From a plasmid: a stretch of DNA of 64,000 bases. The stretch lies in the sequence record NZ_KX832927.1, one strand, 5' to 3'. The notes under the pieces were generated by a model. That model saw nothing but the letters and a program-made list of their open reading frames with translations. It was not told the origin of the DNA and did no database searches. Below are positions 9,128 to 55,235 of the stretch, piece by piece; position 1 is the stretch's first letter, and every line of letters begins with the position of its first letter. The position numbers and the translations under genes were made by a program.

Positions 9128-9158
9128 CAAAAAAAAAGCCTCCGATGAGGGAGGCTTT
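9128..9158 (-). terminator. Rho-independent terminator downstream of the VWA-protein gene
   Basis: Inverted repeat 'aaagcctcc gatgag ggaggcttt' followed by a 9-nt T-run on the minus strand. Confidence 0.55.
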
Positions 9159-9213: not shown

Positions 9214-11154
9214 CTATCGTGCTGTGACTATTAAATTCGCACACATTTGAAGTATGGATTGCTCAATTTCATTGAATTTATTGATAAATATAGTGTTTTT
9301 ACCAAATATCCTCTTGAAATAGGCTTCGTTTGTCCCATCTTCGTTCAATACAAAGGTACAGACTTCTATTCCTTCGATTGTTGCTGAGTTGATGATTTCT
9401 TGAGTCTTATTATCATCATTAGGTTCTCCGTCAGTGATAATGAAAATCATCTTTTTCTTTTCCCTTGATAGAGCGATTTCGCTTATTACGGGAATCAAAC
9501 TTTCAGCCAATGGAGTAGAGCCTAAACATCCTTTGTGAGTAAAAACGCCTTGAGAAATACTTGCGCGAAGCGGTGTATATCTTGGCTTCATCGTTTGTAC
9601 TAGTAGTGAATTGGATTCTTCAACGTAAAAAGGAAATGCATAGCAAGCTGTTGAAACACCTGTGATATTTAACCCTTCCAATACTGCAATGACGGAAGAT
9701 AATGCAGCTCGAATACGGGATGTATCAAAGTGGTATTCATGCATTGAGGAACTAGTATCAAGTAAAATAGAACAAGCACAATTTGGGCTTTGGATAACAC
9801 TTTTAGTCTTAAAAATGTTAGTGTTTCCCGTTTTTACACCTGCTAATTTACTGGATTTAATTCTTGCGCCTTGCTCCTTTAACCGTGAAGTGGATGTAGT
9901 ATTATCATGGACTAATTTTTCAAATGACCGGCGTAATCTACATCCTGTATTCAAACTTCTCTTAATATCAAGTGAAGTTATTGTTTGTGTGGCTTGATTA
10001 AAATTTTTCTTCCACTCTGTGTTAATAATCGCAACGTTAAAAAAATCATTAACTATTCCCTTGGAACTCATATCCTTTTTAAGTTGTTCCGTATTCGAGA
10101 TTGTAGATGTTATATCTTGAATAACATTTTCATTTACACTATCGAATGAAACGTCCTTAAAAATATCGTTAAAACTCTCTGGATCTGAATCTAAGTCGTC
10201 AGTATCAGTTTCGGTTGAAACATTGACGTCATTAGGTCCATTTGAACTTTCACCCACACCAGAGCAGTCAGAGTTACCGGAACCGTCAGGGTCATTACCC
10301 TCAGAGTTACCGGAACCGTCAGGGTCATTACCCTCAGAGCTACCAGAACCGTCAGGGTCATTACCCTCAGAGTTACCGGAACCATCAGGGTCATTACCCT
10401 CAGAGTTACCAGAACCGTCAGGGTCATTACCTTCAGAGTTACCGGAACCATCAGGGTCATTACCCTCAGAGTTACCAGCATCGCCAGAGCTACCATTAGA
10501 GGGAGGTAACGTATCTTGTGGTTTGAGCTGAAGGGCTGTTGCTAGAACAATGAATAATTTTTTGGCAATCAGATTGTTATCGACAGTAGTTGTGGATAAA
10601 AGCACCATTTCTAATAATCTATCAACCTTGTCAGAAATTGCTATGGTAAAGATTGAAATGAATTGAAGTTTTAGTTCGTTAATGTTGTTAACAACGACTC
10701 CGTTGTATTTACTTCTACCATGCAGTAAAACATAGTTTATGAAAAACGTTATTTTTTCCTCAATGGAAATGACGGAGTTAATAGGTTTTTCTGTAAAAAC
10801 ATGTTGTCTGACGGCATCCAAGTAATACTTGGCACCACCATAAACATGCTCTAACTTTGATTCAATCCAGATATCTTCGCAAATATTTTCTAATACACTA
10901 ATATATTTATTGCCTGTTTGAGCAACAAATGAAAAATCAGTGAATTTGGCATGTCCAATTTCATGAATTAAAAAACCTAACAAAATATTACCGAAAGATG
11001 TATCAGTTGTGTAAGGAATCCCTATTTCATATTTACCACTTTCAGATACACCACAATACGCTTCGTCAGTAGTAAACTTAATTGAAATGTCAAATTTGCC
11101 AGCTAATACATTAGCAACGATTGCTAATGAGGCTGCACTTCTTAATTGTTTCAT
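9214..11154 (-). CDS. CobT-like protein (646 aa): N-terminal region with HExxH (HEIGH) motif, acidic tandem repeats (DPDGSGNSEGN x7), C-terminal von Willebrand factor A domain
   Basis: 'LIHEIGHAKF' zincin-like motif. Seven 11-aa repeats. VWA MIDAS motif 'LLDTSSSM' and 'IFIITDGEPND'. Paired with the AAA_5 ATPase gene upstream. Confidence 0.7.
   Translation of the reverse strand: MKQLRSAASLAIVANVLAGKFDISIKFTTDEAYCGVSESGKYEIGIPYTTDTSFGNILLGFLIHEIGHAKFTDFSFVAQTGNKYISVLENICEDIWIESKLEHVYGGAKYYLDAVRQHVFTEKPINSVISIEEKITFFINYVLLHGRSKYNGVVVNNINELKLQFISIFTIAISDKVDRLLEMVLLSTTTVDNNLIAKKLFIVLATALQLKPQDTLPPSNGSSGDAGNSEGNDPDGSGNSEGNDPDGSGNSEGNDPDGSGNSEGNDPDGSGSSEGNDPDGSGNSEGNDPDGSGNSDCSGVGESSNGPNDVNVSTETDTDDLDSDPESFNDIFKDVSFDSVNENVIQDITSTISNTEQLKKDMSSKGIVNDFFNVAIINTEWKKNFNQATQTITSLDIKRSLNTGCRLRRSFEKLVHDNTTSTSRLKEQGARIKSSKLAGVKTGNTNIFKTKSVIQSPNCACSILLDTSSSMHEYHFDTSRIRAALSSVIAVLEGLNITGVSTACYAFPFYVEESNSLLVQTMKPRYTPLRASISQGVFTHKGCLGSTPLAESLIPVISEIALSREKKKMIFIITDGEPNDDNKTQEIINSATIEGIEVCTFVLNEDGTNEAYFKRIFGKNTIFINKFNEIEQSILQMCANLIVTAR
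10268..10498. repeat. Perfect to near-perfect 33-bp tandem repeat array (about 7 copies) inside the VWA-protein gene
   Basis: Unit 'cagagttaccggaaccgtcagggtcattaccct' repeated head-to-tail. Encodes 'DPDGSGNSEGN' on the minus strand. Confidence 0.9.
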
Positions 11155-11173
11155 ATATATACCTATTTAAATA

Positions 11174-11202
11174 AAAACGCCTGAATAAATTCAGGCGTTA
11201 GT
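11174..11202 (-). terminator. Rho-independent terminator
   Basis: Hairpin 'aacgcctgaa taaat tcaggcgtt' followed by T-rich sequence on the minus strand. Confidence 0.5.
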
Positions 11203-11218
11203 TTGGTTTCCCATATTA

Positions 11219-12406
11219 TTAGTAGAAAAATGGAACATCCTGATTTTCATCTTCAACACTAAAGGATGAATTTACAGGTAGATCCGAAGAAACTACTTCA
11301 GGTTCTGATTGAACATCAATTGGTGTCGGAGTTGGTGTCGTATTTTCTACAACATCTTGACTCACATTCGGCACTGTAACCGTTTGTGAGTTTTCGGCGA
11401 CATTCACAATGTTTAAATCGTTTTCTGTTGGTTCAGCATCATCATCTTCATCGACTATAATTTCAATGAAATCACTATCAGTATTACCCGTTACAGGTAC
11501 TGAAGTTGGTATGGCAGTTGATAAATCAATGTTGTTTGTAGTTTGTGGTAAAACAGTTAATTCCACATCTGATACATCGTTCAAATTGGTGGAGTTTATT
11601 AACTGTTTCAAAGTTTTAATGTCTGATAACGTAATAAAAAGTGTTGTTACGGCAATTGATTCGTCATTAGACAATCTACCAACGCTTGGCAACGTTGAAA
11701 TAAAGTTACTCAAATAATCACTTAAACTGCCAGCATCTGGATTTAATACAGCTAATCCTTTCAGCTTACTTGCAACTTCTCGTAACGTATTGAGTGTAGT
11801 TTGAGATATGTTTGATGCATTGTATGAGCCACGTTCCCGTAACTCAGAAATTCTATCAACAACATCAAGCAGGACAGATTCTTTAAGGCTTTGTACTTTT
11901 TCTTCTGACTCGCCTTCACCAAAGGGTGAAATATTGAAAGAAGAAAAACCAAATTGTAGCTTTTCATCTAACCGTTTGACGTCAATAACTTCGGACTCAA
12001 ACAGTTTTTTTACAGTTTCATCTTCTTTATCTAACCATGAAAGAAAATCAGTTGATATAGCGGATAAAAACTCATTTTTGAATATATAGAATTGGTCCTT
12101 TAAATCATTTAGCTGCTGCCTTACGTGACTTGCAAGTGAAGTCGGCACTGCATACCCGTTCAAGAATGGAACACCATATTTTGAACAGATTGCATCAGCA
12201 CCAGTACGAAAGGTACGCATTTTGTTGATTTTTGCAGGGTCAATAACCTTTTTGGTTCCGAGGCTGGCTATTGTTTCGGGAGGCAGAACTATATCTCCAG
12301 TGTTAATAACCTTAATATCTTTACCTTTAAGTGTTTTTCTTCCAGTAGTTAAACGGATACCTTCCAGAGAAAAAATTACTACATTTTCAAGAATGTTTGG
12401 GCTCAT
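11219..12406 (-). CDS. Hypothetical protein (395 aa) with an acidic C-terminus, located between the CobS-like and CobT-like genes
   Basis: Long ORF with coding-like composition. No recognisable motifs. Flanked by terminators. Confidence 0.55.
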   Translation of the reverse strand: MSPNILENVVIFSLEGIRLTTGRKTLKGKDIKVINTGDIVLPPETIASLGTKKVIDPAKINKMRTFRTGADAICSKYGVPFLNGYAVPTSLASHVRQQLNDLKDQFYIFKNEFLSAISTDFLSWLDKEDETVKKLFESEVIDVKRLDEKLQFGFSSFNISPFGEGESEEKVQSLKESVLLDVVDRISELRERGSYNASNISQTTLNTLREVASKLKGLAVLNPDAGSLSDYLSNFISTLPSVGRLSNDESIAVTTLFITLSDIKTLKQLINSTNLNDVSDVELTVLPQTTNNIDLSTAIPTSVPVTGNTDSDFIEIIVDEDDDAEPTENDLNIVNVAENSQTVTVPNVSQDVVENTTPTPTPIDVQSEPEVVSSDLPVNSSFSVEDENQDVPFFY

Positions 12407-12504
12407 AAATTCACCTACATATTTATATATTTAAAAAAGGCAAATAGATAAATCTATTTACCTTGTCGATTTATTAATAATTAAAATTAAAAATAAGATT
12501 TGAA

Positions 12505-13512
12505 TTAAGATTTAAAATAAACATTAAACATATCGTTCAATGCTATTTTTTCATCTTCAGGAGCTCTGTTAGAGATATGTAATTGCCATGCATCTAACAG
12601 AATATCTACCGGTGGTTGTTTAGAACGAAGCATAAAATCGAAACGGCGAACAACATTCACAAGGCTTCTAGTTGAAATAGCGGTACTACTGAAGCTAGTG
12701 ACTGTCGCAGATGTACTTTTACGTACATCGTTAGCCAGCTTTATCAGCCCATCCGTCAGTAACTGATGTGATTCAGGATCAGACAAAAATGAAGCAAGTA
12801 GCTTACGTTCTTCTTTTTCGGGCATATAGTCAGCCTCAACAAACATAAACCTATCGAGGTTGGCTATATTCTGTGGTTTTACACCACTGTAATTTCCTGT
12901 CATATCACCGGTCCCATTACTGTTTGCAGTTACTGCAAATCTAAAGTTTTCATGGTGATGAATGCATTCATTTGTTTCAGGAATGACAAGAGAACCCATC
13001 TCTAAGATCCCGTTGAGGGAGTTAGCTACGGAAGGTTCTAATTGGTCATACTCATCAATCAGAAAAACCAACCCATGCTTATACGCGATGGTTAGCGGTC
13101 CTTCATGAAAGACGGTTTCTTGATCACCCGTTAATTTATCGACCTTTAGGCGAAAACTACCGAGTAAGCTACTCATATCAAGATCAGGACTGGCTGTTAC
13201 TTTCATCAATCCCCAATTCATACGAGCAGCAATTTGCTCAACTATTGAAGATTTTCCACAGCCAGTAGGTCCAGAAATCCAGAGTGATGTATCTAATGGG
13301 TTATCAAACCACATTAATACATGCTTTCTGAGTGAAGGTTCAAACACATACTTCTCATTAAATTTCGGGATATACTCTGAAAATTGATGGTCATTAGAAA
13401 AACCCTTGATACTATATTTGCCCTTTAAATTCTCAGGCAGAATAATACCTAAAGATTCCATATCGACCGGAGTGTTACGTTTAATATCAAAACTGTTATT
13501 TACAGCGTTCAT
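12505..13512 (-). CDS. CobS/MoxR-like AAA+ ATPase (AAA_5 family, 335 aa)
   Basis: Walker A 'GPTGCGKSS', Walker B 'VFLIDEYD'. The size and domain order match CobS-type ATPases that pair with VWA proteins. Confidence 0.8.
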   Translation of the reverse strand: MNAVNNSFDIKRNTPVDMESLGIILPENLKGKYSIKGFSNDHQFSEYIPKFNEKYVFEPSLRKHVLMWFDNPLDTSLWISGPTGCGKSSIVEQIAARMNWGLMKVTASPDLDMSSLLGSFRLKVDKLTGDQETVFHEGPLTIAYKHGLVFLIDEYDQLEPSVANSLNGILEMGSLVIPETNECIHHHENFRFAVTANSNGTGDMTGNYSGVKPQNIANLDRFMFVEADYMPEKEERKLLASFLSDPESHQLLTDGLIKLANDVRKSTSATVTSFSSTAISTRSLVNVVRRFDFMLRSKQPPVDILLDAWQLHISNRAPEDEKIALNDMFNVYFKS

Positions 13513-13565
13513 ATATTTACCTATTTAAATAATAAACATTCAAATTAATTTGAGGTTTAAGTTTG

Positions 13566-13934
13566 TTAAATTGAACAATTAACAACACCGCAATGACGTT
13601 GACTTTTTAATATCTCGCCATTCACAAATGTTGTTACTTGTTTTACGTTAGTCATGTAAGTTTCAATATCAAAATCTCTCATGCTTTTAGTAATAAAAGG
13701 AATGAGAAATGATTTTCCACCAATAAGACATTTATTTGTTTTGTATTTAACACTTAGGAAATCAGCAAACAAAGCAATGTTATTTGCTTGGTTTAATAAA
13801 TCATTTCTTTCAGTGTTTGTGACACGTAATAACATACGAAGTTTTTCATTTTCATCTTGAGTTAAATCAATAACGCCAAAACTTTTCTGTTCATCGGATG
13901 CAGCATAAGTTGTCATATTAATGATATTATTCAT
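13566..13934 (-). CDS. Hypothetical protein (122 aa)
   Basis: ORF with an upstream SD-like 'taggt' context. No motifs recognised. Confidence 0.45.
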   Translation of the reverse strand: MNNIINMTTYAASDEQKSFGVIDLTQDENEKLRMLLRVTNTERNDLLNQANNIALFADFLSVKYKTNKCLIGGKSFLIPFITKSMRDFDIETYMTNVKQVTTFVNGEILKSQRHCGVVNCSI

Positions 13935-13971: not shown

Positions 13972-15078
13972 TTATAAATAATTATATATATCTATTATTG
14001 AATCACCTTTCTGACGGTTTTCATTGTCATAATGATTATCAGAAGGTGATATTGAATTGGAAGAATGATATTCATAACTTGTTATTGATGTTTTAATTGA
14101 CGACTCACCATAACAATCAGGATGATCTTCTTCATTGATACCTAATTTCTCTCTTAGCTTCTTCCAAGAAAACCGTGGAGCGCTGTGAGATTCTAAATAT
14201 CGAATACCAAAGCCTTCAAGCCTCAAGGGAGCATTAGGTTGTAACTTTAATACAGATGAGAAAACCTTTATTTCATTTCTTATCTGTTCATCAAATGATG
14301 CTACTTTTTCTTTAGCTTCATTCAATTGTTTTTGTGCTAATTGAAATGCAGATTGTAATTCAACTAACTTTTTTGTGCGTGAAATTAAATCTTCAGGGTT
14401 AATATTACGTTCTTTTAGTACATCATCACTATTTAAATAAATTATATCCTTATTTACATCAAACTCAGGAGGCGTTTTGTTATTAACGCAATTCCAGAAT
14501 CTTTTAGTGATGGTAACAACCTTATTTATTATTTTGTCATTAATTTTTAATTTAAAGACAAGAGGTGTTTCTTTAGCAGACCAGAATACCAAGTACCCAT
14601 ATGTGCTGCCAGTAACTACCATTTGATGATAAACCTGCCATTTGTAATAGTTGAAAATTGAAGATTTTGCTTTTTCTTCTAATAACAAACGGTGGTTTTT
14701 TGGGGATATATTTTTGAACTCTACAACATCATTATTTTCAATAAGTCCATCAAGTGAGGCTATCATGTGCGGATATTTCCTACTTCGCACACAACAAGGA
14801 CTACTGATTTCCCCATACTGATTTTCAAACCAGTGTCGGGCGAACTGTTCGGATAGCTTCCCTACTTCAACTTGCCGTATACATGACAAATCCTTTGGTG
14901 GAATAGCTCCGATCCATTCTAAATATAAGCTGTAAGGAGTATTGCTGAACTCATTTTTAACGTCGGGATTAAGAGTGGGGGTACACGTAGCTGTTACACC
15001 CGTTTTTCTCCAGCTTAACCATTTATCAGAACCTTGAATGAGATCATATATATCGAAATTATTCATATTAATATCCAA
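13972..15078 (-). CDS. exo: YqaJ/lambda-Exo-like PD-(D/E)xK exonuclease (phage-type recombination exonuclease) with a C-terminal coiled-coil extension
   Basis: N-terminal 'GSDKWLSWRK...' resembles the YqaJ domain start. Directly downstream of recT. The ORF-track start is TTG; an ATG at 15064-15066 gives an alternative start. Confidence 0.65.
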   Translation of the reverse strand: MDINMNNFDIYDLIQGSDKWLSWRKTGVTATCTPTLNPDVKNEFSNTPYSLYLEWIGAIPPKDLSCIRQVEVGKLSEQFARHWFENQYGEISSPCCVRSRKYPHMIASLDGLIENNDVVEFKNISPKNHRLLLEEKAKSSIFNYYKWQVYHQMVVTGSTYGYLVFWSAKETPLVFKLKINDKIINKVVTITKRFWNCVNNKTPPEFDVNKDIIYLNSDDVLKERNINPEDLISRTKKLVELQSAFQLAQKQLNEAKEKVASFDEQIRNEIKVFSSVLKLQPNAPLRLEGFGIRYLESHSAPRFSWKKLREKLGINEEDHPDCYGESSIKTSITSYEYHSSNSISPSDNHYDNENRQKGDSIIDIYNYL

Positions 15079-15114: not shown

Positions 15115-16404
15115 TTAATTCTGCTCAATAGTACGCAAAATATAATCAGATAACGGTTTAAATTCGATAATAGACAACTTATTTATAAGTGGTGCCATAT
15201 CGCTTTGTTTTTTACAATCAGAGAATAACTGTCGGCAACAAGCTAAATCAGATTTAACTTGCTCAAGTGTTTTTATAAATGCTACTTGATCTGAGCCTGA
15301 AACAGTTGAAATGAAATTATCAACATCTTTAAAATCATTATTCTGGATTGCATTAGATAGTATTTTATTAAATACATTCTTTCTTTCTGCTATTAATTCT
15401 TCCTTTGCATATTCAATTTCTGTAGGATTAAACTCAAAGTTATTTGAGATTTCATCAAGCATACTTTCAAATGCATTGGTCTTGCTGCACCGTTCAACTA
15501 GCTTGTCAATCCGCCGTTTCACTCCATTACGAATGACATCAACTACAATAGCCTCAGACACGTTTTTAGACGAGTCTGTTACTACTGCTGAGTCTTGGTC
15601 AGTAAATGCGTGTACAGCTTCATAACTAGTTGTTTCGAGCGAAACAGGACGATTTTGAGTAAAACCCTCACCCCCATCTGTATTCAGATAATCAATTGTT
15701 CGCATGATTGCCTGATTAGCGTTAGGAAGTAAGTGTATACAGGATTTGATAGCAGTTTTTCTGATCATCTGTGTAGTAAACAACGACCACGGAGATTTAT
15801 CAGGACTATACAGCCAACTTGCAGATTTTAAACGGGCACTTGCAATATCACGTCTGGTTATGAAGTAAATCAAGTGAGTATCGTCATGCAGAAGGTAGTC
15901 AACATATACCCCCCTGAAATTACCTCTTTCACCGATTGAGCCTTTGTCGAATTGGTCTATAAGAATATTTCCAACATCTGCAAAAGGGTCATAGTGATGT
16001 GTTGGTGGTGTCCGTCTGCCATTGAACTCAAACTTATCTTTTTCAAAAACTAAATCTATAATTAAGTTTTTACACATTTGAGCTTCAATAGCCATTTTTA
16101 TTAACCCCAAATACGAGACATCAAGAATAACACGCTCATCTCTGGGTACTAAGTATGCTAATTTTTGAGCAGGGTCTAACGTTAGTGACGTTGTTGCAAG
16201 CTGTAAAAATGCAGTTTTAAAACTAGCGGGATTATTAATAGCAATCGCCATTAGTTTTTTGTTGTTATCAATCTGATTCTTAGCAAAAATTGCTTCATTA
16301 AAATACGATGCTTCACTAAGGGAGTTCTCAGTAAATTTCGGTTTTAAACTTGCAATTATGTTAGAAACAGCTTTGCTACCTTGAACTATATTCGATGATG
16401 ACAT
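15115..16404 (-). CDS. recT: RecT/Bet-family single-strand annealing protein (429 aa, with C-terminal extension)
   Basis: Core resembles RecT: 'LVPRDERVILDVSYLGLIKMA...SPWSLFTTQMIRKTAIKSCIH'. Paired with the YqaJ-like exonuclease, as in the SXT/IncC bet-exo modules. Confidence 0.75.
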   Translation of the reverse strand: MSSSNIVQGSKAVSNIIASLKPKFTENSLSEASYFNEAIFAKNQIDNNKKLMAIAINNPASFKTAFLQLATTSLTLDPAQKLAYLVPRDERVILDVSYLGLIKMAIEAQMCKNLIIDLVFEKDKFEFNGRRTPPTHHYDPFADVGNILIDQFDKGSIGERGNFRGVYVDYLLHDDTHLIYFITRRDIASARLKSASWLYSPDKSPWSLFTTQMIRKTAIKSCIHLLPNANQAIMRTIDYLNTDGGEGFTQNRPVSLETTSYEAVHAFTDQDSAVVTDSSKNVSEAIVVDVIRNGVKRRIDKLVERCSKTNAFESMLDEISNNFEFNPTEIEYAKEELIAERKNVFNKILSNAIQNNDFKDVDNFISTVSGSDQVAFIKTLEQVKSDLACCRQLFSDCKKQSDMAPLINKLSIIEFKPLSDYILRTIEQN

Positions 16405-16481: not shown

Positions 16482-16979
16482 TCAAATAGATTTTTTACTA
16501 TCTAATGAACTTAATAATTGGCTTTTTAACAATAGCTGATTATTATCATATTTATTTTCTTCCAATTTTTTATTTGATTCATCAAGCGAATTTCTGGATT
16601 TATTAAAGTTTAATATATCCGTTAACTCTCTGATGCGTTCTAAACTTCTAACGCGCTGTTGTCTTGCTTCTTCATCTATTTCAACCTCTGATTTCGTTTG
16701 ATAAGTATTAACGCCATTGATTGATAATATAAATGGAAGAATATAGAATCTTTCTTTAACAATATTGTTAATTACAGATTCTTTTAATTTAACCTCACCC
16801 TTTGCAAATATCGTATCATTGCTTTTTGCATTTGATAATATCTCTGCAAGTTTGGTGTCCTTACAAACTATATGAAAGTAAGCACTTTGATCTTCAAGCA
16901 TGACATCATAAACTATTTTGTCTTTTACTTGAGTCGAGCGAATAATATTTATTTTACCTGAGAATGATAATTCACACAT
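16482..16979 (-). CDS. Hypothetical protein (165 aa), possible OB-fold/SSB-like protein upstream of recT
   Basis: Position matches ssb in the SXT ssb-bet-exo module. N-terminal beta-rich region 'SFSGKINIIRSTQVKDKIVYDVML'. Assignment is weak. Confidence 0.35.
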   Translation of the reverse strand: MCELSFSGKINIIRSTQVKDKIVYDVMLEDQSAYFHIVCKDTKLAEILSNAKSNDTIFAKGEVKLKESVINNIVKERFYILPFILSINGVNTYQTKSEVEIDEEARQQRVRSLERIRELTDILNFNKSRNSLDESNKKLEENKYDNNQLLLKSQLLSSLDSKKSI

Positions 16980-47554: not shown

Positions 47555-48508
47555 TTAGTATATAAGATTCCTTGCAGCAGCTTCTAAGCGTGTTACACCT
47601 CGTTTGTCATACCGCTGTGTGGTTGCTACGCTACTGTGCCCCATAGCCTCCCTGACAGTAAGTAGGTCCTCACCGAGTTCTAACAGCTTAGTAGCATAGG
47701 TTCGTCGGCAGTCATGGGGGGTAAATGAATCAGAGGCTGAATCTTTCACCAGTTTATCAATAATATACCGTAAACCATCGGTTGTTATTCTATCGCAAGT
47801 CACATCATCATTTTTACGTATGCGGGTAAAAACTGCACCGGTATGATCCCCTCTTACAGTTTCTATCCATAAACGAATACGACGGAGCGTGTCACTTGGC
47901 ATGAAGTTAGTTCTTTCTTTGTTTCCTTTACCCATGATTTTAATGGAGTAATTATCAAAATTGATATCTTCCATATCCAATAAAGTGACTTCAGCACGGC
48001 GCAAACCACAGCCAAGCATTAATGATACAATCGCCGCATCACGTACCGAGACTGCGGTATTTAGGCTATCAAGGTGTTGATAAATAGCAGTTATTTCACT
48101 ACTACTCAGTGAACGCCCTCGACCGATACGGTTCCCACGAATCCGGCGTATGCTTCTAATATCTTGATATGTATCACTGTCTATAATTCGTGATGCTCTG
48201 GCTTCTTCAGCCACCCCTTTAATAGCACTCAGAATTAGGTTTATACTATTAGGTGTCTTTTTCTCCAGTATTAATTTCTGAAGTACCAATTGAACGGCAT
48301 CTCGATCTATGATTGACCAATCGAAAGTAAACGGGTCCATAGCACGAAACAATTTAACCACTGACACTAGGCAGGAGCGCATTGTCTTTTGGCTTTGTTT
48401 GGAACGCAGCCGTAGCAAGTAGCTGGTTGCTGGATTGTTGGTGTTTTTCGTCATGTTATTTACATCAACAATTTCTGTTACGTTGTCACGTAAAATTAAC
48501 TCTCCCAT
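47555..48508 (-). CDS. Tyrosine recombinase (phage-integrase/Xer family; start moved to the ATG with SD 'AAGGAGG', 317 aa)
   Basis: 'LRRAEV', 'HDCRRTYAT', 'GHSSVATTQRY' (RHRY catalytic signature). Confidence 0.8.
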   Translation of the reverse strand: MGELILRDNVTEIVDVNNMTKNTNNPATSYLLRLRSKQSQKTMRSCLVSVVKLFRAMDPFTFDWSIIDRDAVQLVLQKLILEKKTPNSINLILSAIKGVAEEARASRIIDSDTYQDIRSIRRIRGNRIGRGRSLSSSEITAIYQHLDSLNTAVSVRDAAIVSLMLGCGLRRAEVTLLDMEDINFDNYSIKIMGKGNKERTNFMPSDTLRRIRLWIETVRGDHTGAVFTRIRKNDDVTCDRITTDGLRYIIDKLVKDSASDSFTPHDCRRTYATKLLELGEDLLTVREAMGHSSVATTQRYDKRGVTRLEAAARNLIY

Positions 48509-48814
48509 CGGTGCCTCCTTGGTGCTGAAAATCGGTGTGAAAATTGTGGTGAATTCTGGTGCATCAAATAGCATCACTAACCATAAATCATAAAATAAAA
48601 AAAGTTACTACATTAAACGTATATTTAACCGAGTAAAGGGTAGCACAGGTATTTATCATCGAATAGCTAAAATACAGGTATTTGTACGCATTAAAAGGCT
48701 TGCAATCTTTAAACTGTTGTATAATGGAATTACGTAGTAAGTTCTTAAAAATAATAATGATTTTTACATTACTAATTACCTAAATGTTTCGGAGAGGGAT
48801 AATGTCAGCGATAA

Positions 48815-49875: not shown

Positions 49876-50695
49876 GGCACTGTTGCAAATAGTCGGTGGT
49901 GATAAACTTATCATCCCCTTTTGCTGATGGAGCTGCACATGAACCCATTCAAAGGCCGGCATTTTCAGCGTGACATCATTCTGTGGGCCGTACGCTGGTA
50001 CTGCAAATACGGCATCAGTTACCGTGAGCTGCAGGAGATGCTGGCTGAACGCGGAGTGAATGTCGATCACTCCACGATTTACCGCTGGGTTCAGCGTTAT
50101 GCGCCTGAAATGGAAAAACGGCTGCGCTGGTACTGGCGTAACCCTTCCGATCTTTGCCCGTGGCACATGGATGAAACCTACGTGAAGGTCAATGGCCGCT
50201 GGGCGTATCTGTACCGGGCCGTCGACAGCCGGGGCCGCACTGTCGATTTTTATCTCTCCTCCCGTCGTAACAGCAAAGCTGCATACCGGTTTCTGGGTAA
50301 AATCCTCAACAACGTGAAGAAGTGGCAGATCCCGCGATTCATCAACACGGATAAAGCGCCCGCCTATGGTCGCGCGCTTGCTCTGCTCAAACGCGAAGGC
50401 CGGTGCCCGTCTGACGTTGAACACCGACAGATTAAGTACCGGAACAACGTGATTGAATGCGATCATGGCAAACTGAAACGGATAATCGGCGCCACGCTGG
50501 GATTTAAATCCATGAAGACGGCTTACGCCACCATCAAAGGTATTGAGGTGATGCGTGCACTACGCAAAGGCCAGGCCTCAGCATTTTATTATGGTGATCC
50601 CCTGGGCGAAATGCGCCTGGTAAGCAGAGTTTTTGAAATGTAAGGCCTTTGAATAAGACAAAAGGCTGCCTCATCGCTAACTTTGCAACAGTGCC
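49876..50695 (+). mobile_element. IS26 (820 bp, IS6 family)
   Basis: 14-bp IRs 'GGCACTGTTGCAAA' at 49876-49889 and its complement at 50682-50695. Tnp26 protein is identical in the stretch read. Confidence 0.95.
49939..50643 (+). CDS. tnpA: IS26 transposase Tnp26 (234 aa)
   Basis: 'MNPFKGRHFQRDIILWAVRWYCKYGISYRELQEMLAERG...' canonical Tnp26. Confidence 0.95.
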   Translation: MNPFKGRHFQRDIILWAVRWYCKYGISYRELQEMLAERGVNVDHSTIYRWVQRYAPEMEKRLRWYWRNPSDLCPWHMDETYVKVNGRWAYLYRAVDSRGRTVDFYLSSRRNSKAAYRFLGKILNNVKKWQIPRFINTDKAPAYGRALALLKREGRCPSDVEHRQIKYRNNVIECDHGKLKRIIGATLGFKSMKTAYATIKGIEVMRALRKGQASAFYYGDPLGEMRLVSRVFEM

Positions 50696-51131
50696 CGCCG
50701 ATGCGCTCAAGCCGTGGATTGCGCGGCGTGAACGCTGGCCGTCCTTTCTGATCCGGCGCGATCCGCGCGACATCAGCCGTATCTGGGTCCTGGAACCGGA
50801 GGGACAGCATTACCTGGAAATTCCCTACCGTACCTTGTCGCATCCGGCTGTCACCCTCTGGGAACAACGGCAGGCGCTGGCGAAACTGCGGCAGCAAGGG
50901 CGCGAACAGGTGGATGAGTCGGCGCTGTTCCGCATGATCGGCCAGATGCGTGAGATTGTGACCAGCGCGCAGAAGGCCACACGCAAGGCGCGGCGTGACG
51001 CGGATCGCCGCCAGCACCTCAAGACATCAGCTCGGCCGGACAAGCCCGTTCCGCCGGATACGGATATTGCCGACCCGCAGGCAGACAACTTGCCACCCGC
51101 CAAACCGTTCGACCAGATTGAGGAGTGGTAG
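50696..51131 (+). pseudogene. tniA: tniA (Tn402/Tn5053-family transposase), 3' fragment only. The 5' part and IRt were removed by IS26.
   Basis: The reading frame runs from inside IS26. C-terminal sequence is followed by an overlapping tniB, as in Tn21/In2. Confidence 0.8.
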
Positions 51132-51994
51132 CCGTGGACGAATATCCCATCATCGACCTGTCCCACCTGCTGCCGGCGGCCCAGGGCTTGGCCCGTCTTC
51201 CGGCGGACGAGCGCATCCAGCGCCTTCGCGCCGACCGCTGGATCGGCTATCCGCGCGCAGTCGAGGCGCTGAACCGGCTGGAAGCCCTTTATGCGTGGCC
51301 AAACAAGCAACGCATGCCCAACCTGCTGCTGGTTGGCCCGACCAACAATGGCAAGTCGATGATCGTCGAGAAGTTCCGCCGCACCCACCCGGCCAGCTCC
51401 GACGCCGACCAGGAGCACATCCCGGTGTTGGTCGTGCAGATGCCGTCCGAGCCGTCCGTGATCCGCTTCTACGTCGCGCTGCTCGCCGCGATGGGCGCGC
51501 CGCTGCGCCCACGCCCACGGTTGCCGGAAATGGAGCAACTGGCTCTGGCACTGCTGCGCAAGGTCGGCGTGCGCATGCTGGTGATCGACGAGCTGCACAA
51601 CGTGCTGGCCGGCAACAGCGTCAACCGCCGGGAATTCCTCAACCTGCTGCGCTTCCTCGGCAACGAACTGCGCATCCCGTTGGTTGGGGTAGGCACGCGC
51701 GACGCCTACCTAGCCATCCGCTCCGATGACCAGTTGGAAAATCGCTTCGAGCCGATGATGCTGCCGGTATGGGAGGCCAACGACGATTGCTGCTCACTGC
51801 TGGCCAGCTTCGCCGCTTCGCTCCCGCTGCGCCGGCCTTCCCCAATTGCCACGCTGGACATGGCTCGCTACCTGCTCACACGCAGCGAGGGCACCATAGG
51901 GGAACTGGCGCACTTGCTGATGGCGGCGGCCATCGTCGCCGTGGAGAGCGGCGAGGAAGCGATCAACCATCGCACACTCAGCATGGCCTGTTGA
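51125..51994 (+). CDS. tniB: TniB-delta (ATP-binding transposition protein), 3' end truncated by IS1326 (tniBΔ1-like). Likely GTG start at 51134.
   Basis: Walker A 'GPTNNGKS', 'VIDELHNV'. Followed directly by the IS1326 end. Confidence 0.85.
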   Translation: MVAVDEYPIIDLSHLLPAAQGLARLPADERIQRLRADRWIGYPRAVEALNRLEALYAWPNKQRMPNLLLVGPTNNGKSMIVEKFRRTHPASSDADQEHIPVLVVQMPSEPSVIRFYVALLAAMGAPLRPRPRLPEMEQLALALLRKVGVRMLVIDELHNVLAGNSVNRREFLNLLRFLGNELRIPLVGVGTRDAYLAIRSDDQLENRFEPMMLPVWEANDDCCSLLASFAASLPLRRPSPIATLDMARYLLTRSEGTIGELAHLLMAAAIVAVESGEEAINHRTLSMAC

Positions 51995-52016
51995 GTTGCA
52001 TCTAAAATTGACCCAC

Positions 52017-53630
52017 TGGGGGTGCGGACGATTTCTTGGACGGTTTATACGGACATCAATCCGACCGCATGACGATACTCGATGGGACTACGCCCGCCAA
52101 GCGACACTTTGATGCGGCGCTCGTTGTACCAGTGGATATAGGCATCGATTCGCGTCATGAGGTCTTTCAGCGTCACGTGCTGCCAATTCCTCGGGTAGAT
52201 TAGTTCGGTCTTCAATCGTCCGAAAAAGCCCTCGCATGCAGCATTGTCTGGCGAGCAGCCCTTTTTGGACATCGACCGCGTTAATTGGGCATTTTCAGTG
52301 CGGCGGATCCACGCAGGCCAGCGATAATGCGAGCCCCTGTCCGAATGGATAACCGGATGCTCACCGGGTCGCAGTGTCCGTACCGCGTGATCCAGCATGG
52401 TATTGACCAGGTTCGCATCCGGGCTGGTGCCGATATTCCAGGCCACCACCAGCCCATCGAAGCAATCGACGATCGGCGAGACGTAGACCTTCCCTGCCGG
52501 AATGTGTATTTCCGTCAGATCGGTCAACCATTTCGTATTCGGCGCCGACGCGTGAAAGTCGCGATTCAGCAGATTCGGGACCGCTGGTGTCGGGTCGCCA
52601 GCATACGCCGAGAAGCGCCGGCGGCGCGGTGTTCTCACGACCAGACGCTCTTGCGCCATCAAGCGACGCACGACCTTCTCGGACACACGCATGCCACCAA
52701 GGCGCAAGGCACTATCAATGCGTCGATAGCCATAGCAGCGGTAGTTGTCCTCGAAGATAGTCCGAATGACCTCACGCACCTGCGTGTACTTGTCGGGCCG
52801 CGTCTGCCGCAGGCGTTGATAGAAGTATGTGCTGCGCGCCAGCTTCAGGCCGCACAACAGATTGGCTAATGGAAACGTGACTCTGAGGGCATCAACCACC
52901 TTCGTTTTTTCTCGGCTTGTCAGTTCGAGGGGGTTGATGCCCATGTCTTTTTTTATCAATTCACTCGCCTTCTCCAGAATTGCATTCTCCATGCGAAGCC
53001 GCTGGTTCTGGCTCTCCAGTTCGGCCAGTTCCCTGAGTAGTGCCTCATGCCGCTGCTCGAGCGAGGTGTCACCTTTCTTCTTTGTCATGGGTTTTAGGGG
53101 CACTTTGCCAAGTAATCGATGCTGCCAGTTATACAACGTTGGTCGCGATACACCGACAGTGTCGGCCACATCCTTTGCCGAACCTACGCGCAGGTTCAGT
53201 GCAATGACGGCTTGCTGCTTCTCGAGGCGAGAGCGGGCGACTGTGGGAGCGCTGCTGCCGACGACCGTCCTAGCGAATTCAGGGCGTAAATCACGGATCC
53301 AGGCACGCAAGGCCTCGCGGCTTGGGTAGCCCAGGCTTCGGATTGTGTGACTCAGGCAGTAGCCTTGTTCGATATAGTGATCTACTGCCCGTTGCTTTTG
53401 CTCATCGGTGTACTGCCGTTTTATCCGTTGATAGCCTCGGCGAAGATCCTGATTCCGTTCGAATTCTGCCAACCAGGCCTTCAGCGAGTTCTTGGTGGGG
53501 TATCCCAGCTGCCGTAGTGTGGCGCTCATCCGGCGCCCAAGCTTCAGGTACAACCTCACGGCTCGAAGGCGATCTTCATACGAATACATGAACTACTCCT
53601 AAAGTAGTCCAAGATTTTGTCCGCACCCCA
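52017..53630 (-). mobile_element. IS1353-like IS3-family element (about 1614 bp) inserted in IS1326
   Basis: Terminal IRs 'TGGGGGTGCGGACGATTTCTTGGAC' and 'GTCCAAGATTTTGTCCGCACCCCA'. Located between the IS1326 left end and istA, as in In2. Confidence 0.75.
52045..53589 (-). CDS. IS3-family transposase (514 aa, single continuous ORF in this copy; HTH N-terminus plus DDE integrase core)
   Basis: N-terminal HTH 'LRAVRLYLKLGRRMSATLRQLGYP'. C-terminal rve-like region 'VHSDRGSHY...'. Confidence 0.75.
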   Translation of the reverse strand: MYSYEDRLRAVRLYLKLGRRMSATLRQLGYPTKNSLKAWLAEFERNQDLRRGYQRIKRQYTDEQKQRAVDHYIEQGYCLSHTIRSLGYPSREALRAWIRDLRPEFARTVVGSSAPTVARSRLEKQQAVIALNLRVGSAKDVADTVGVSRPTLYNWQHRLLGKVPLKPMTKKKGDTSLEQRHEALLRELAELESQNQRLRMENAILEKASELIKKDMGINPLELTSREKTKVVDALRVTFPLANLLCGLKLARSTYFYQRLRQTRPDKYTQVREVIRTIFEDNYRCYGYRRIDSALRLGGMRVSEKVVRRLMAQERLVVRTPRRRRFSAYAGDPTPAVPNLLNRDFHASAPNTKWLTDLTEIHIPAGKVYVSPIVDCFDGLVVAWNIGTSPDANLVNTMLDHAVRTLRPGEHPVIHSDRGSHYRWPAWIRRTENAQLTRSMSKKGCSPDNAACEGFFGRLKTELIYPRNWQHVTLKDLMTRIDAYIHWYNERRIKVSLGGRSPIEYRHAVGLMSV

Positions 53631-53711
53631 ACTTAGGGTAAAGATTTGCGTCGAAATTTGACCCACGTATGACACTGTTTCCCGTCTGGATATGGCGGGA
53701 GAAATCAAGGA

Positions 53712-55235
53712 GTGATAAACGTGGCGATATTGAGCGCAATTCGACGCTGGCATTTTCGCGATGGTGCGTCGATTCGGGAAATAGCCCGACGAAGCGGCCT
53801 GTCCAGGAACACCGTTCGCAAGTATTTGCAAAGCAAGGTGGTTGAACCGCAGTACCCAGCGCGAGACAGCGTTGGCAAGTTAAGTCCTTTTGAGCCCAAG
53901 TTAAGGCAGTGGCTCTCCACCGAGCACAAAAAGACAAAGAAGCTGCGCAGAAACCTGCGCAGCATGTACCGGGATTTGGTCGCTTTGGGCTTTACCGGGT
54001 CTTATGACCGAGTGTGTGCCTTTGCCCGACAGTGGAAAGATTCCGAACAGTTCAAGGCGCAAACCTCGGGCAAGGGTTGTTTCATCCCCTTGCGCTTTGC
54101 TTGTGGCGAAGCCTTCCAATTCGATTGGAGTGAGGACTTTGCCCGCATAGCGGGCAAACAGGTCAAACTTCAGATTGCCCAGTTTAAGTTGGCCCACAGC
54201 CGGGCCTTTGTGCTTCGGGCTTACTACCAGCAAAAACATGAAATGCTGTTTGATGCCCACTGGCATGCCTTTCAAATCTTCGGTGGCATTCCCAAGCGCG
54301 GCATCTACGACAACATGAAGACCGCTGTGGATTCGGTGGGGCGTGGCAAAGAGCGCAGGGTCAATCAGCGGTTCACTGCCATGGTCAGCCACTACCTGTT
54401 TGATGCGCAGTTCTGTAATCCAGCATCGGGTTGGGAGAAAGGCCAGATTGAGAAGAACGTGCAGGATTCCCGCCAACGCCTGTGGCAAGGGGCACCAGAC
54501 TTTCAAAGCCTTGCTGATTTGAATGTGTGGCTTGAGCATCGCTGCAAAGCGCTGTGGTCTGAGCTGCGCCACCCCGAATTGGACCAAACCGTGCAAGAGG
54601 CCTTTGCCGATGAACAAGGCGAGTTGATGGCGCTACCCAATGCCTTTGATGCATTCGTGGAGCAAACCAAGCGAGTCACTTCAACCTGCCTTGTTCACCA
54701 CGAGGGCAATCGCTACAGCGTTCCTGCCAGTTACGCCAACAGGGCCATCAGCCTTCGGATTTATGCAGACAAGCTGGTGATGGCTGCCGAAGGCCAACAC
54801 ATTGCCGAGCATCCAAGATTGTTTGGCAGTGGCCACGCTCGGCGTGGCCACACACAATACGACTGGCACCATTACTTGTCTGTGCTTCAGAAGAAACCTG
54901 GGGCGTTGCGCAATGGTGCGCCATTTGCTGAATTGCCACCCGCGTTCAAGAAGCTTCAATCCATCTTGCTGCAACGCCCCGGCGGTGACCGTGACATGGT
55001 GGAAATTCTGGCCCTTGTATTGCACCACGATGAAGGTGCGGTACTCAGTGCTGTGGAATTGGCATTGGAGTGTGGCAAGCCATCGAAGGAGCATGTGCTT
55101 AATCTGTTGGGACGTTTGACCGAAGAACCTCCACCCAAACCGATTCCAATTCCCAAGGGGTTAAGGCTGACATTGGAACCACAGGCCAACGTGAACCGCT
55201 ATGACAGTTTAAGGAGAGCCCATGATGCAGCATGA
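53712..55235 (+). CDS. istA: IstA transposase of IS1326 (IS21 family)
   Basis: 507 aa. HTH N-terminus, DDE core. Overlaps istB. Confidence 0.9.

What the first reader, a model, noticed from the sequence alone, without database searches (positions are those of the whole stretch)
9214..13512. CobS-like AAA+ ATPase and CobT-like VWA protein with an HExxH motif and acidic repeats, embedded in the transfer backbone
A 335-aa AAA_5 ATPase (Walker A 'GPTGCGKSS') sits two genes upstream of a 646-aa protein. That protein has a zincin-like 'HEIGH' motif, seven DPDGSGNSEGN repeats and a C-terminal VWA (MIDAS 'DTSSSM') domain. A 395-aa ORF with no recognisable motifs lies between them. Sizes and domain order mirror CobS/CobT and MoxR-VWA chaperone pairs such as NorQ/NorD and CbbQ/CbbO. 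A similar 'cobS-like' gene is known in the SXT/IncC backbones, but no function in conjugation has been shown. Each gene has its own terminator and a near-identical start context, so the block looks like a deliberately expressed module next to recT/exo rather than a random insert. It may remodel a DNA-processing or pilus substrate.
Basis: partly seen in the sequence, partly recalled or inferred. Interest (0 to 1): 0.7.

Follow-up and report, generated by a model that had tools for sequence, protein, structure and literature searches.

The report
Plasmid CobS/CobT-like motor, adaptor, DUF3150
Three adjacent plasmid genes encode a ring ATPase, a CobT-like adaptor that keeps a protease-type zinc motif, and a DUF3150 protein. 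The trio always travels with the plasmid's DNA-repair genes and probably helps incoming plasmid DNA survive the new host's restriction defences, so it is not a vitamin B12 or pilus function.

Summary
The three ORFs are real and sit at the stated coordinates. The window matches pPrY2001-like MOBH/MPF_F plasmids of Providencia and Proteus.

- **ATPase:** a CobS/MoxR-class AAA+ protein with intact catalytic motifs.
- **646-aa protein:** a full-length homologue of the solved CobT. It has a zincin-like N-domain, a disordered acidic linker, a pore 'shaft' and a VWA-MIDAS domain. Unlike true CobT it keeps HExxH plus a downstream Glu.
- **'Motif-less' middle ORF:** this is DUF3150 (Pfam E 1.7e-50).
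- **Conservation:** the order [SSB]-[Bet/RecT]-Exo-ATPase-DUF3150-CobT-like recurs in IncC, IncHI1 and about 80 further loci.
- **Outdated claim:** In IncC, deleting the ATPase homologue Vcrx089 together with Vcrx090 abolishes anti-restriction. This acts in the recipient and was shown by two laboratories. The window lacks a Vcrx090 homologue.
- **Repeat:** 6.3 copies, not 7. Copy number varies from 1 to 8 among near-identical plasmids.
- **New observation:** DUF3150, Exo and Vcrx090-like proteins end in a co-varying aromatic C-terminal tip. The ATPase and the CobT-like protein essentially never do (0 of 72 and 1 of 90).

Best reading: a motor-adaptor-client machine for defence evasion or repair during establishment. 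The biochemical target is unknown.

The parts
12505..13512 (-). CobS/MoxR-class AAA+ ATPase, 335 aa (the motor). Walker A is G81-S88 (nt 13249-13272). Walker B is D153/E154. Sensor 1 is N197, the candidate arginine finger is R221 and sensor 2 is R282.
   Evidence: AAA_5 scores 68.8 bits against a cutoff of 22. phrog_249 E 3.7e-55. PDB matches: midasin AAA domains, CobS 9ujv E 3e-26, NorQ and CbbQ. 33% identical to IncC Vcrx089, E 4e-45. The motifs are conserved in 67 distinct homologues.
11219..12406 (-). DUF3150 protein, 395 aa. It has a folded N-domain of about 265 aa, then an acidic tail predicted to be disordered (net charge of the whole protein -28), and ends in the aromatic tip ...DVPFFY (nt 11222-11239).
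   Evidence: PF11348 scores 172 bits, E 1.7e-50. 891 representative clusters match. 103 of 148 relatives end in F and 15 in W. 71 of 78 locus copies carry the strict aromatic tip. The AF2 model has pLDDT below 50 from aa 240 onward.
9214..11154 (-). CobT-like adaptor, 646 aa. The zincin-like N-domain is aa 6-210, the disordered acidic linker about aa 211-400, the shaft-like conserved segment about aa 405-455 (nt 9790-9942) and the VWA domain aa 456-643 (nt 9226-9789).
10951..10965 (-). HEIGH (H64, E65, H68), a zincin HExxH motif. The conserved E93/D94...E98 on the next helix lie at nt 10861-10878.
   Evidence: Invariant in 10 homologues that share 20-42% identity. True CobT has GDSMA at this position.
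10268..10476 (-). In-frame 33-bp tandem repeat, 6.3 copies, encoding (DPDGSGNSEGN)n inside the acidic linker.
   Evidence: TRF score 376. Copy number runs from 1 to 8 in near-identical plasmids, with protein lengths of 591 to 668 aa, many of them 11 aa apart. The 107-contig allele, the most widely seen, has a single unit.
9745..9759 (-). MIDAS DxSxS (D466, S468, S470). The remaining MIDAS residues are T547 and D575.
   Evidence: Invariant columns in alignments A2 and A7. They correspond to CobT D422/S424/S426/N518/D546 (preprint 10.64898/2026.07.21.739949).
13566..13934 (-). 122-aa ORF immediately upstream of the ATPase. It is a conserved accessory gene in the RecT-type lineages.
   Evidence: Homologous to the genes at the same position in L004 and L007. 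Also found in L009, L010, L012 and L050. No Pfam, PHROG or NCBIfam hit.
13972..15078 (-). YqaJ/lambda-type exonuclease, the syntenic partner of the trio. Its C-terminus is ...IDIYNYL.
   Evidence: PF09588 E 3e-18. Exo is present in 40 of 52 loci with at least 9 kb of upstream sequence. 42 of 54 Exo copies carry the aromatic tip.
15115..16404 (-). RecT-family single-strand annealing protein, 429 aa.
   Evidence: PF03837 E 5e-14.
12437..12464 (-). Terminator-like hairpin after the ATPase gene.
11176..11199 (-). Terminator-like hairpin after the DUF3150 gene. It scores on both strands.
9135..9158 (-). Terminator-like hairpin after the CobT-like gene, followed by a run of T.

Best explanation
The three genes encode one machine built on the plan of the CobS-CobT-CobN cobalt chelatase, but put to a different use.

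- **Motor.** The ATPase forms a hexameric ring. This is inferred from homology to CobS, NorQ and midasin.
- **Adaptor.** The 646-aa protein is a full-length CobT homologue. By analogy with the solved CobST complex, its N-domain would dock on the ATPase lid. A conserved segment just before the VWA domain would enter the ring pore when nucleotide binds. The N-domain sheet and the MIDAS face would together hold a client. Unlike true CobT, the N-domain keeps HExxH plus a downstream Glu, so it probably still binds zinc and may cleave or grip a peptide.
- **Third component.** DUF3150 takes the place that CobN has in the chelatase. It has a folded N-domain, an acidic disordered tail and an aromatic C-terminal tip.

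The trio is the constant companion of the SSB, Bet/RecT and Exo genes of MOBH-type conjugative elements. It most likely acts in the recipient just after DNA entry, to protect or repair the incoming plasmid. This has been shown only for the IncC ATPase deleted together with Vcrx090.

The step I favour is ATP-driven remodelling or removal of a protein on the DNA, for example a stalled type I restriction enzyme. Co-encoded proteins that carry the aromatic tip (DUF3150, Exo, Vcrx090-like) would be its clients or cofactors. This step is inference.
For: **Family and architecture**
- Pfam, NCBIfam, PHROG and PDB matches for the ATPase, and catalytic motifs conserved in 67 homologues.
- The CobT-like profile matches solved CobT over its full length, E 4.5e-63.
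- The predicted N-domain topology equals that described for CobT_N: one helix, a three-stranded sheet, then helices, M48C-like (preprint 10.64898/2026.07.21.739949).
- HExxH, E93/D94/E98, the shaft-region residues R408/G429/G443/F448 and the MIDAS residues are invariant at 20-42% identity.

**One system**
- The ATPase is present in 64 of 67 loci and DUF3150 in 63 of 67, on the same strand and in a fixed order. Hosts span Gamma-, Beta- and Alphaproteobacteria and Geobacter.

**Function**
- Deleting vcrx089-090 lowers transfer 25-fold into an RM+ recipient. The defect is complemented from the recipient, not the donor (PMC7498323).
- The same deletion raises restriction by EcoBI 424-fold and by EcoKI 906-fold (PMC11602122).
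- vcrx087 to vcrx094 are co-transcribed.
- The pCAR1 homologues ORF100-103 are strongly transcribed in a transconjugant host (PMC2642839).

**Client idea**
- The strict aromatic tip occurs in 91% of DUF3150, 78% of Exo and 11 of 11 Vcrx090-like proteins. It occurs in 0 of 72 ATPases, 1 of 90 CobT-like proteins and 3% of other ORFs.
- Exo and DUF3150 tips match within a locus more than in any of 20000 shuffles.
- The match is at the protein level, with different codons and different downstream DNA.
- The tip persists in loci that have no Exo or annealing protein.
Against: - No experiment addresses DUF3150 or the CobT-like protein in any element.
- The IncC phenotype comes from a double deletion. 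The ATPase's own contribution is not separated from that of Vcrx090, and polar effects on ssb-bet-exo were suspected.
- The window has no Vcrx090 homologue, so anti-restriction activity cannot simply be transferred to it.
- No peptidase family in Pfam matches the N-domain. True CobT uses the same fold without catalysis.
- The tip co-variation partly follows host clade, so the receptor could be a host protein.
- The shuffle test ignores relatedness among loci.
- The DUF3150 structure model is poor (pLDDT 46), and no physical interaction was tested.
Confidence: 0.55

Rival explanations
1. The trio is a dedicated accessory of the RecT/Bet-Exo recombination system rather than an anti-restriction device. 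It would load, activate, recycle or protect the exonuclease and annealing protein on DNA ends, or supply a Gam-like function.
For: Tight synteny with Exo (40 of 52 loci). Exo and DUF3150 share co-varying C-terminal tips. In pKAZ3, deleting exo (vcrx093) raises EcoBI restriction 426-fold, about the same as deleting vcrx089-090 (424-fold). That fits one pathway.
Against: In pVCR94 the ssb-exo deletion did not affect transfer into the RM+ recipient, whereas the vcrx089-090 deletion did. Several loci carry the trio with no Exo or annealing protein within 10 kb, for example IncHI1 L002, L007, L022, L026, L081 and the Geobacter type.
Confidence: 0.25
2. The trio is a chaperone for the transfer apparatus in the donor (pilus, type IV secretion or relaxosome assembly).
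For: In the window and in SXT the block lies between tra genes. The authors of the pCAR1 study speculated about a role in transfer.
Against: In IncC, IncHI1 and most of the 80 loci the block is not flanked by tra genes. SXT deletions of bet, exo, s067, s068 and s070 changed transfer by 10-fold or less, and s073 is dispensable (PMC2791158). The IncC phenotype is complemented from the recipient, not the donor.
Confidence: 0.08
3. The trio is a plasmid-borne defence or conflict system of the vWA-MoxR type, directed against phages or competing elements.
For: vWA-MoxR conflict systems are described (PMC7159879, listed). There is a weak similarity between the ATPase and the IetA/IteA anti-phage ATPases.
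Against: The PADLOC and NCBIfam hits cover only the Walker A region and score far below cutoff (23 against 510 bits). PADLOC gives no hit for DUF3150 or the CobT-like protein. The neighbours are anti-defence and establishment genes: ssb, recombinase and orphan methylases.
Confidence: 0.07
4. The ATPase and VWA protein are genuine cobaltochelatase subunits that use a host CobN to raise vitamin B12 synthesis. This is the annotation often given to the phage homologues.
For: Best named relatives are CobS and CobT. phrog_249 is labelled 'porphyrin biosynthesis'. This role was proposed for viral cobST genes (PMC8651126).
Against: The TIGR01650 CobS equivalog scores 92 bits against a cutoff of 558. 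The window protein does not reach the Pfam CobT threshold. HExxH is retained here but lost in real CobT. The fixed third partner is DUF3150, not CobN. The context is recombination and transfer. From general knowledge, not tested here, the enterobacterial hosts use the anaerobic CbiK route and lack CobN.
Confidence: 0.03

Closest known systems
Aerobic cobaltochelatase CobS-CobT-CobN (Brucella melitensis structures 9ujv and 9uka; preprint 10.64898/2026.07.21.739949)
   Same: A clade-6 AAA+ ring ATPase with a partner of identical architecture: M48C-like N-domain, disordered acidic linker, shaft segment and VWA-MIDAS domain. The full-length profile match is E 4.5e-63. The logic is three components: motor, adaptor and a third protein.
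   Different: HExxH...E is retained here and lost in CobT. The third protein is DUF3150 (about 45 kDa, with an acidic tail and aromatic tip) instead of the 137-kDa CobN. The context is recombination, anti-defence and conjugation, not a cob operon. The CobS equivalog threshold is missed by a wide margin.
IncC host-defence-evasion operon vcrx089-vcrx093 (pVCR94, pKAZ3); AntiDefenseFinder system vcrx089_090
   Same: The ATPase is homologous (33% identity, full length). The operon neighbourhood is the same: annealing protein, exonuclease, DUF3150 and CobT-like genes (by position vcrx094 and vcrx095). Both belong to the MOBH/MPF_F element family.
   Different: The window has no Vcrx090-family gene. 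It has RecT instead of Bet, no recognisable SSB gene, and a 122-aa gene upstream of the ATPase. In the window the ATPase sits next to DUF3150. In IncC, ssb-bet-exo lie between them.
NorQ-NorD and CbbQ-CbbO (MoxR-VWA remodelling pairs)
   Different: Their clients are metalloenzymes (nitric oxide reductase, Rubisco). They have no zincin N-domain with HExxH and no DUF3150.
MoxR-vWA pair of group 2.2 jumbo phages and the cobS/cobT genes of cyanophages (PMC7824862, PMC8651126)
   Same: They are carried by mobile elements. The vWA protein is fused to an N-terminal metallopeptidase-like domain. ATPase relatives occur in 803 phage records.
   Different: The phage versions lack DUF3150: only one 'phage' record matched, and it carries a Salmonella enterica organism name and full-length relatives of both proteins. 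Virion assembly or B12 roles have been proposed for them, without tests.

Membership tests
MoxR/CobS-class AAA+ ATPase (Pfam AAA_5) | AAA_5 domain above the Pfam gathering score | tested here: met
   68.8 bits against a cutoff of 22, E 6e-19.
MoxR/CobS-class AAA+ ATPase (Pfam AAA_5) | Intact Walker A, Walker B, sensor 1, arginine finger and sensor 2 | tested here: met
   G81-S88, D153/E154, N197, R221 and R282 are conserved in 67 distinct homologues.
MoxR/CobS-class AAA+ ATPase (Pfam AAA_5) | A VWA-MIDAS partner gene in the same operon | tested here: met
   The partner lies two genes downstream on the same strand. The ATPase accompanies the CobT-like gene in 64 of 67 loci.
MoxR/CobS-class AAA+ ATPase (Pfam AAA_5) | Hexameric ring with ATPase activity | not testable with these tools
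   Needs purified protein.
Cobaltochelatase subunit CobS (TIGR01650 equivalog) | Score above the equivalog cutoff | tested here: not met
   92.4 bits against a cutoff of 558.55.
Cobaltochelatase CobST(N) | CobN partner or cob operon context | tested here: not met
   The neighbours are RecT, Exo, DUF3150 and tra genes. DUF3150 is the fixed third gene.
CobT superfamily (PF06213 plus PF11775) | Full-length architecture: N-domain, disordered linker, shaft, VWA-MIDAS | tested here: met
   Profile A2 matches 9uka_G residues 24-619, E 4.5e-63. The AF2 topology agrees. 9 of 15 family members hit PF06213.
CobT superfamily (PF06213 plus PF11775) | The window protein itself reaches the Pfam CobT threshold | tested here: not met
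   The window protein gives no CobT hit. The N-domain of the IncC homologue scores 26.5 bits against a cutoff of 26.1.
Zincin (gluzincin, M48-like) metallopeptidase | HExxH on a helix plus a downstream acidic zinc ligand | tested here: met
   H64, E65, H68 and E93/D94/E98 are invariant in divergent homologues. They lie on consecutive predicted helices that follow a three-stranded sheet.
Zincin (gluzincin, M48-like) metallopeptidase | Sequence match to a curated peptidase family | tested here: not met
   No peptidase Pfam family matches at E up to 10. There is only a weak match to phrog_459 'peptidase', E 1.5e-6, with no individually significant stretch.
Zincin (gluzincin, M48-like) metallopeptidase | Zinc binding and proteolysis | not testable with these tools
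   Needs biochemistry.
IncC anti-restriction system vcrx089_090 | Vcrx089-like ATPase | tested here: met
   33% identity over 283 aa, E 4e-45.
IncC anti-restriction system vcrx089_090 | Vcrx090-family partner directly after the ATPase | tested here: not met
   BLAST, phmmer and a 33-member family HMM find nothing in the 64-kb window; the best E is 0.36. The family matches 48 ORFs among the compared loci.
IncC anti-restriction system vcrx089_090 | Anti-restriction phenotype in the recipient | not testable with these tools
   Needs mating assays.
DUF3150 (PF11348) | Full-length Pfam match above the gathering score | tested here: met
   172.2 bits against a cutoff of 24.9, covering profile positions 1-257 of 257.

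The most novel reading that the evidence does not exclude
The ATPase and the zincin-VWA adaptor form a receptor machine for a set of co-encoded proteins: DUF3150, the exonuclease, Vcrx090-like proteins and sometimes Bet. Each of these ends in an acidic tail with a co-evolving aromatic C-terminal tip. The machine would use ATP, and perhaps the retained HExxH site, to load, activate, recycle or cleave these factors, or a restriction enzyme stalled on the DNA, on plasmid DNA that has just entered a cell. That would be the first MoxR/CobST-type system with DNA-repair or anti-defence clients and a catalytically competent CobT-like adaptor.
Probability: 0.3. Interest if true: 0.8.

Novelty: new variant of a known kind. 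Interest (0 to 1): 0.5.

Why it matters
This gene set sits in the backbone of major multidrug-resistance vehicles: IncC, IncA, IncHI, SXT/R391 and the pPrY2001-like NDM plasmids. More than 1400 plasmid records carry it. The IncC ATPase region raises escape from type I restriction by a factor of hundreds, which helps explain the broad host range of these plasmids, yet its mechanism is unknown.

Three points make that mechanism testable:
- The ATPase always comes with a full-length CobT-like adaptor that keeps a protease motif.
- It also always comes with a DUF3150 protein.
- Several neighbouring proteins share a co-varying C-terminal tip.

Together these give a concrete subunit list, point mutants to make and a candidate docking motif. 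They also show that a 'vitamin B12' annotation used widely for plasmids and phages is probably misleading.

Tried and rejected
1. **Wider homologue search.** I used an artificial concatenated alignment (DUF3150 plus CobT-like, A1) to get diverse homologues for structure prediction. It returned almost only close relatives.
2. **DUF3150 structure.** AF2 with the shallow alignment gave pLDDT 46, which is unusable for fold search. No PDB sequence relative appeared even with a 60-sequence profile.
4. **Related-locus search from DUF3150.** The loci were therefore found through the HExxH pattern of the CobT-like protein. Those 80 loci cannot be used to measure HExxH conservation. For that I used the 8 plasmid lineages found by tblastn, plus P0045-P0048 and P0055.
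5. **PADLOC.** It gave only P-loop-level hits.
6. **DNA-repeat explanation for the shared tips.** Rejected, because the codons and downstream DNA differ.
7. **Annealing protein or Exo as the tip receptor.** Rejected as the sole receptor, because the tips persist in loci without them.
8. **Supplementary TnSeq tables of PMC7498323.** These could show insertion indexes for vcrx094 and vcrx095, but they are not held.

Full report
**1. What is there**

The window is collinear with pPrY2001-like conjugative plasmids of Providencia and Proteus. These are typed MOBH relaxase, MPF_F mating-pair system. The best match is NZ_OL908906 at 99.3%, and pPrY2001 (NC_022589) matches at 96.6%.

On the minus strand the order is: traC ... 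trbC, traU, several unknown ORFs, RecT (15115-16404), a YqaJ-type exonuclease (13972-15078), a 122-aa ORF (13566-13934), the ATPase (12505-13512), the 395-aa ORF (11219-12406), the 646-aa protein (9214-11154), then traF, traH, traG and traN.

The sizes and the motifs GPTGCGKSS, HEIGH and DTSSSM are as reported. Four corrections apply:
- The repeat is a 33-bp array of 6.3 copies, giving six DPDGSG units.
- The middle ORF is DUF3150, E 1.7e-50.
- The 20-nt start context is shared only by the ATPase and VWA genes. It has two exact hits in 64 kb against none expected.
- A hairpin with a T-run follows each gene, but no promoter-like site lies in the short gaps between them.

**2. The ATPase**

It matches AAA_5 (68.8 bits), phage 'CobS' family phrog_249 (E 4e-55), and in the PDB the midasin AAA domains, CobS (3e-26), NorQ and CbbQ. 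It falls far below the CobS equivalog cutoff, 92 bits against 558.

Walker A, Walker B, sensor 1, R221 and sensor-2 R282 are conserved in 67 distinct homologues. It is therefore an active-looking CobS/MoxR-class motor, but not a CobS orthologue.

**3. The 646-aa protein is a full-length CobT homologue that keeps a zincin site**

- Eight plasmid homologues found by tblastn share only 20-25% identity with it. They come from IncC, IncHI1, Citrobacter, Vibrio, Methylomonas and two Pseudomonas-type plasmids.
- All of them keep HExxH, an E-D-x-R-I-E helix about 25 residues later, a conserved basic segment before the VWA domain, and the MIDAS residues.
- A profile of the family aligns over its whole length with the solved CobT chain 9uka_G, E 4.5e-63.
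- 9 of 15 members hit Pfam CobT, although the window protein alone does not.
- True CobT reads GDSMA where this family reads HExxH.
- The AF2 model has moderate confidence for aa 6-210: one helix, three strands, then about seven helices with HExxH on the first. It is disordered for aa 211-455 and shows a VWA fold for aa 456-643. NorD is the best structural match for the VWA domain.

The recent CobSTN preprint (10.64898/2026.07.21.739949) describes the following:
- CobT_N has exactly this topology and resembles an M48C peptidase.
- It binds the CobS lid.
- The linker of about 90 residues is disordered.
- A 'shaft' just before the VWA domain enters the CobS ring when nucleotide binds.
- The client CobN is held between the CobT_N sheet and the MIDAS face.

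The window protein matches each of these elements. The difference is that its zincin motif is intact.

**4. The acidic repeat**

All homologues have a low-complexity acidic linker at this position. In the pPrY2001 lineage part of it is a 33-bp tandem repeat. Its copy number runs from 1 to 8 in otherwise near-identical proteins of 591 to 668 aa, many of them 11 aa apart. The 107-contig allele, the most widely seen, has a single unit. The repeat is therefore a variable spacer, not a functional module in itself.

**5. DUF3150 is the third subunit**

- tblastn finds the CobT-like gene on 1430 plasmid records, 1205 of them conjugative.
- In seven annotated lineages fetched from those records, and in 80 further genomic loci, the order [SSB]-[Bet or RecT]-Exo-ATPase-(small ORF)-DUF3150-CobT-like recurs on one strand.
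- Of 67 loci with at least 4.5 kb of upstream sequence, 63 have DUF3150 and 64 have the ATPase. Of 52 loci with at least 9 kb upstream, 40 have Exo.
- DUF3150 has 891 representative clusters and no PDB sequence relative.
- It is essentially absent from phage records, although CobS-like ATPases occur in 803 of them.

Its architecture is a conserved N-domain of about 265 aa, then a non-conserved acidic tail, then an aromatic C-terminus. Of 148 relatives, 103 end in F and 15 in W.

**6. What is known experimentally**

- **pCAR1 (2009).** ORF100-103 were noted as conserved in R478, Rts1, SXT and R391. ORF101 is a MoxR ATPase and ORF103 a VWA protein. The operon is strongly transcribed in a transconjugant host (PMC2642839).
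- **SXT.** Deletions of bet, exo, s067, s068 and s070 changed transfer by 10-fold or less, and s073 is dispensable (PMC2791158). By position these probably include the DUF3150 and CobT-like homologues. That mapping is my inference.
- **IncC pVCR94.** vcrx089 (AAA_5 plus CbbQ_C) and vcrx090 together give evasion of type I restriction. Deletion causes a 25-fold drop that is complemented from the recipient, not the donor. ssb-bet-exo repair Cas3 breaks. vcrx087 to vcrx094 form one transcript (PMC7498323).
- **pKAZ3.** The vcrx089-090 deletion raises restriction by EcoBI 424-fold and by EcoKI 906-fold (PMC11602122).
- **AntiDefenseFinder** lists the pair as a system (PMC11724313).
- **Gap.** No paper mentions vcrx095, and vcrx094 appears only as a primer site.

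The window ATPase is 33% identical to Vcrx089. A family HMM shows that Vcrx090-like genes directly follow the ATPase in many of the compared loci. The window and its RecT-type relatives have none (best E 0.36). They carry a conserved 122-aa gene upstream of the ATPase instead.

**7. A new observation: shared C-terminal tips**

Within each element, DUF3150, Exo, the Vcrx090-like protein and sometimes Bet end in similar aromatic tips:

| Locus | Exo | Post-ATPase protein | DUF3150 | Bet |
|---|---|---|---|---|
| P. putida L008 | AFCL | AFCV | EFCL | none |
| Methylomonas L006 | SSWF | SAWF | DFWF | no tip |
| L050 | TFDW | none | SFDW | none |
| L079 | SLYF | DFYF | SLYF | none |
| IncC L001 | TFYW | DHFF | DYFF | GSYY |
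| Window | YNYL | none | PFFY | none |

The strict tip pattern has these frequencies:

| Protein class | With tip | Total |
|---|---|---|
| DUF3150 | 71 | 78 |
| Exo | 42 | 54 |
| Vcrx090-like | 11 | 11 |
| Bet | 7 | 40 |
| ATPase | 0 | 72 |
| CobT-like | 1 | 90 |
| RecT | 0 | 10 |
| SSB | 1 | 32 |
| Other ORFs of at least 150 aa | 40 | 1386 |

- Exo and DUF3150 tips from the same locus share 1.89 of their last 4 residues, against 1.12 for shuffled pairs. None of 20000 shuffles reached the observed value.
- That test ignores relatedness among loci, but at least seven different tip classes match independently.
- The similarity is at the protein level, since the codons and downstream DNA differ.
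- It persists in loci that lack Exo and an annealing protein.

The simplest reading is a common docking site on something present in all loci: the ATPase/CobT-like pair, or a host protein. The tips recall the acidic tail and aromatic tip of SSB, but they differ from the IPF tips of the SSBs encoded in these same loci.

**8. Mechanism**

- **Shown by homology:** a motor, an adaptor and a fixed third protein.
- **Shown by experiment in IncC only:** the ATPase-containing region is needed in the recipient to escape restriction, mainly type I.
- **Inferred:** the machine remodels or removes a protein on incoming DNA. The host itself alleviates type I restriction through ClpXP degradation of HsdR (general knowledge, not tested here). 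An AAA+ motor with a protease-like adaptor could do the same for the plasmid. Alternatively it services the tip-bearing repair factors.

The B12, pilus and defence-system readings are weakly supported; the rival explanations give the evidence for and against each.

**9. Verdict**

- The kind (a MoxR/CobST motor-adaptor pair, and the IncC host-defence-evasion neighbourhood) is known.
- The three-component form has not been described in the papers I could search. It combines a CobT-like adaptor with an intact zincin motif, DUF3150 and tip-bearing partners.
- Interest is moderate. It is not a surprise in kind, but it gives a concrete handle on an open mechanism in clinically important plasmids.

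Noticed in passing
window 11222-11239 (DUF3150 C-terminus) and 13975-13995 (Exo C-terminus); loci L001-L088: DUF3150, Exo, Vcrx090-like proteins and some Bet proteins end in an aromatic tip, often preceded by acidic residues. The tip co-varies within each element (for example AFCL/AFCV/EFCL, TFDW/SFDW, SLYF/SLYF). The ATPase, CobT-like protein, RecT and SSB essentially never carry it. The similarity is at the protein level only.
   Followed up: yes
window 10268-10476: The 33-bp in-frame repeat in the CobT-like linker varies from 1 to 8 copies among near-identical plasmids. The single-unit allele is the most widespread. It sits a few kb from a single-strand-annealing recombination system, which might promote its expansion and contraction.
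   Followed up: partly
window 11152-11171 and 13510-13529: An identical 20-nt translation-start context (TTTAAATAGGTANATATATG) precedes the ATPase and CobT-like genes only. It occurs twice in 64 kb against none expected. This may serve matched translation of the two partners.
   Followed up: partly
window 9135-9158, 11176-11199, 12437-12464; also L001, L005, L008, L050: A hairpin directly after the stop codon of each gene of the block is also seen in distant lineages (IncC, pAQU-like, Pseudomonas), although the IncC operon is co-transcribed. These hairpins may be attenuators or mRNA stabilisers rather than full terminators.
   Followed up: partly
window 13566-13934: A 122-aa ORF with no database family is conserved immediately upstream of the ATPase in the RecT-type loci (L004, L007, L009, L010, L012, L050). 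Those are the loci that lack a Vcrx090-family gene.
   Followed up: partly
window 16482-16979 and 15115-16404: The 165-aa ORF at the position where related operons carry ssb has no SSB or other Pfam match. The RecT protein is long (429 aa), with a C-terminal extension of about 200 aa beyond the Pfam domain.
   Followed up: no
window about 50000-64000: G+C content jumps from about 0.36 to 0.50-0.65. The region holds a class 1 integron-type set (IntI1-like integrase 59672-60685, aadA-type 58155-59000, sul1-type 56811-57737) plus IS21-family istA/istB (53712-56007) and an IS3-type transposase (52045-53589). A tyrosine recombinase gene (47555-48577) lies just before the boundary.
   Followed up: partly
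phage hits H73-H81: Escherichia and Klebsiella phage records of about 84-120 kb (for example pJN2-26, Cyrano, ST13-OXA48phi12.3) encode a protein similar to the N-terminal zincin-like domain. It is annotated as a 'porphyrin biosynthesis protein'.
   Followed up: no
L001, L005, L007, L008 downstream of the CobT-like gene: Orphan DNA methyltransferases, a toprim/primase-like gene and a 5'-deoxynucleotidase often follow the trio. This fits an establishment and anti-defence gene neighbourhood.
   Followed up: no
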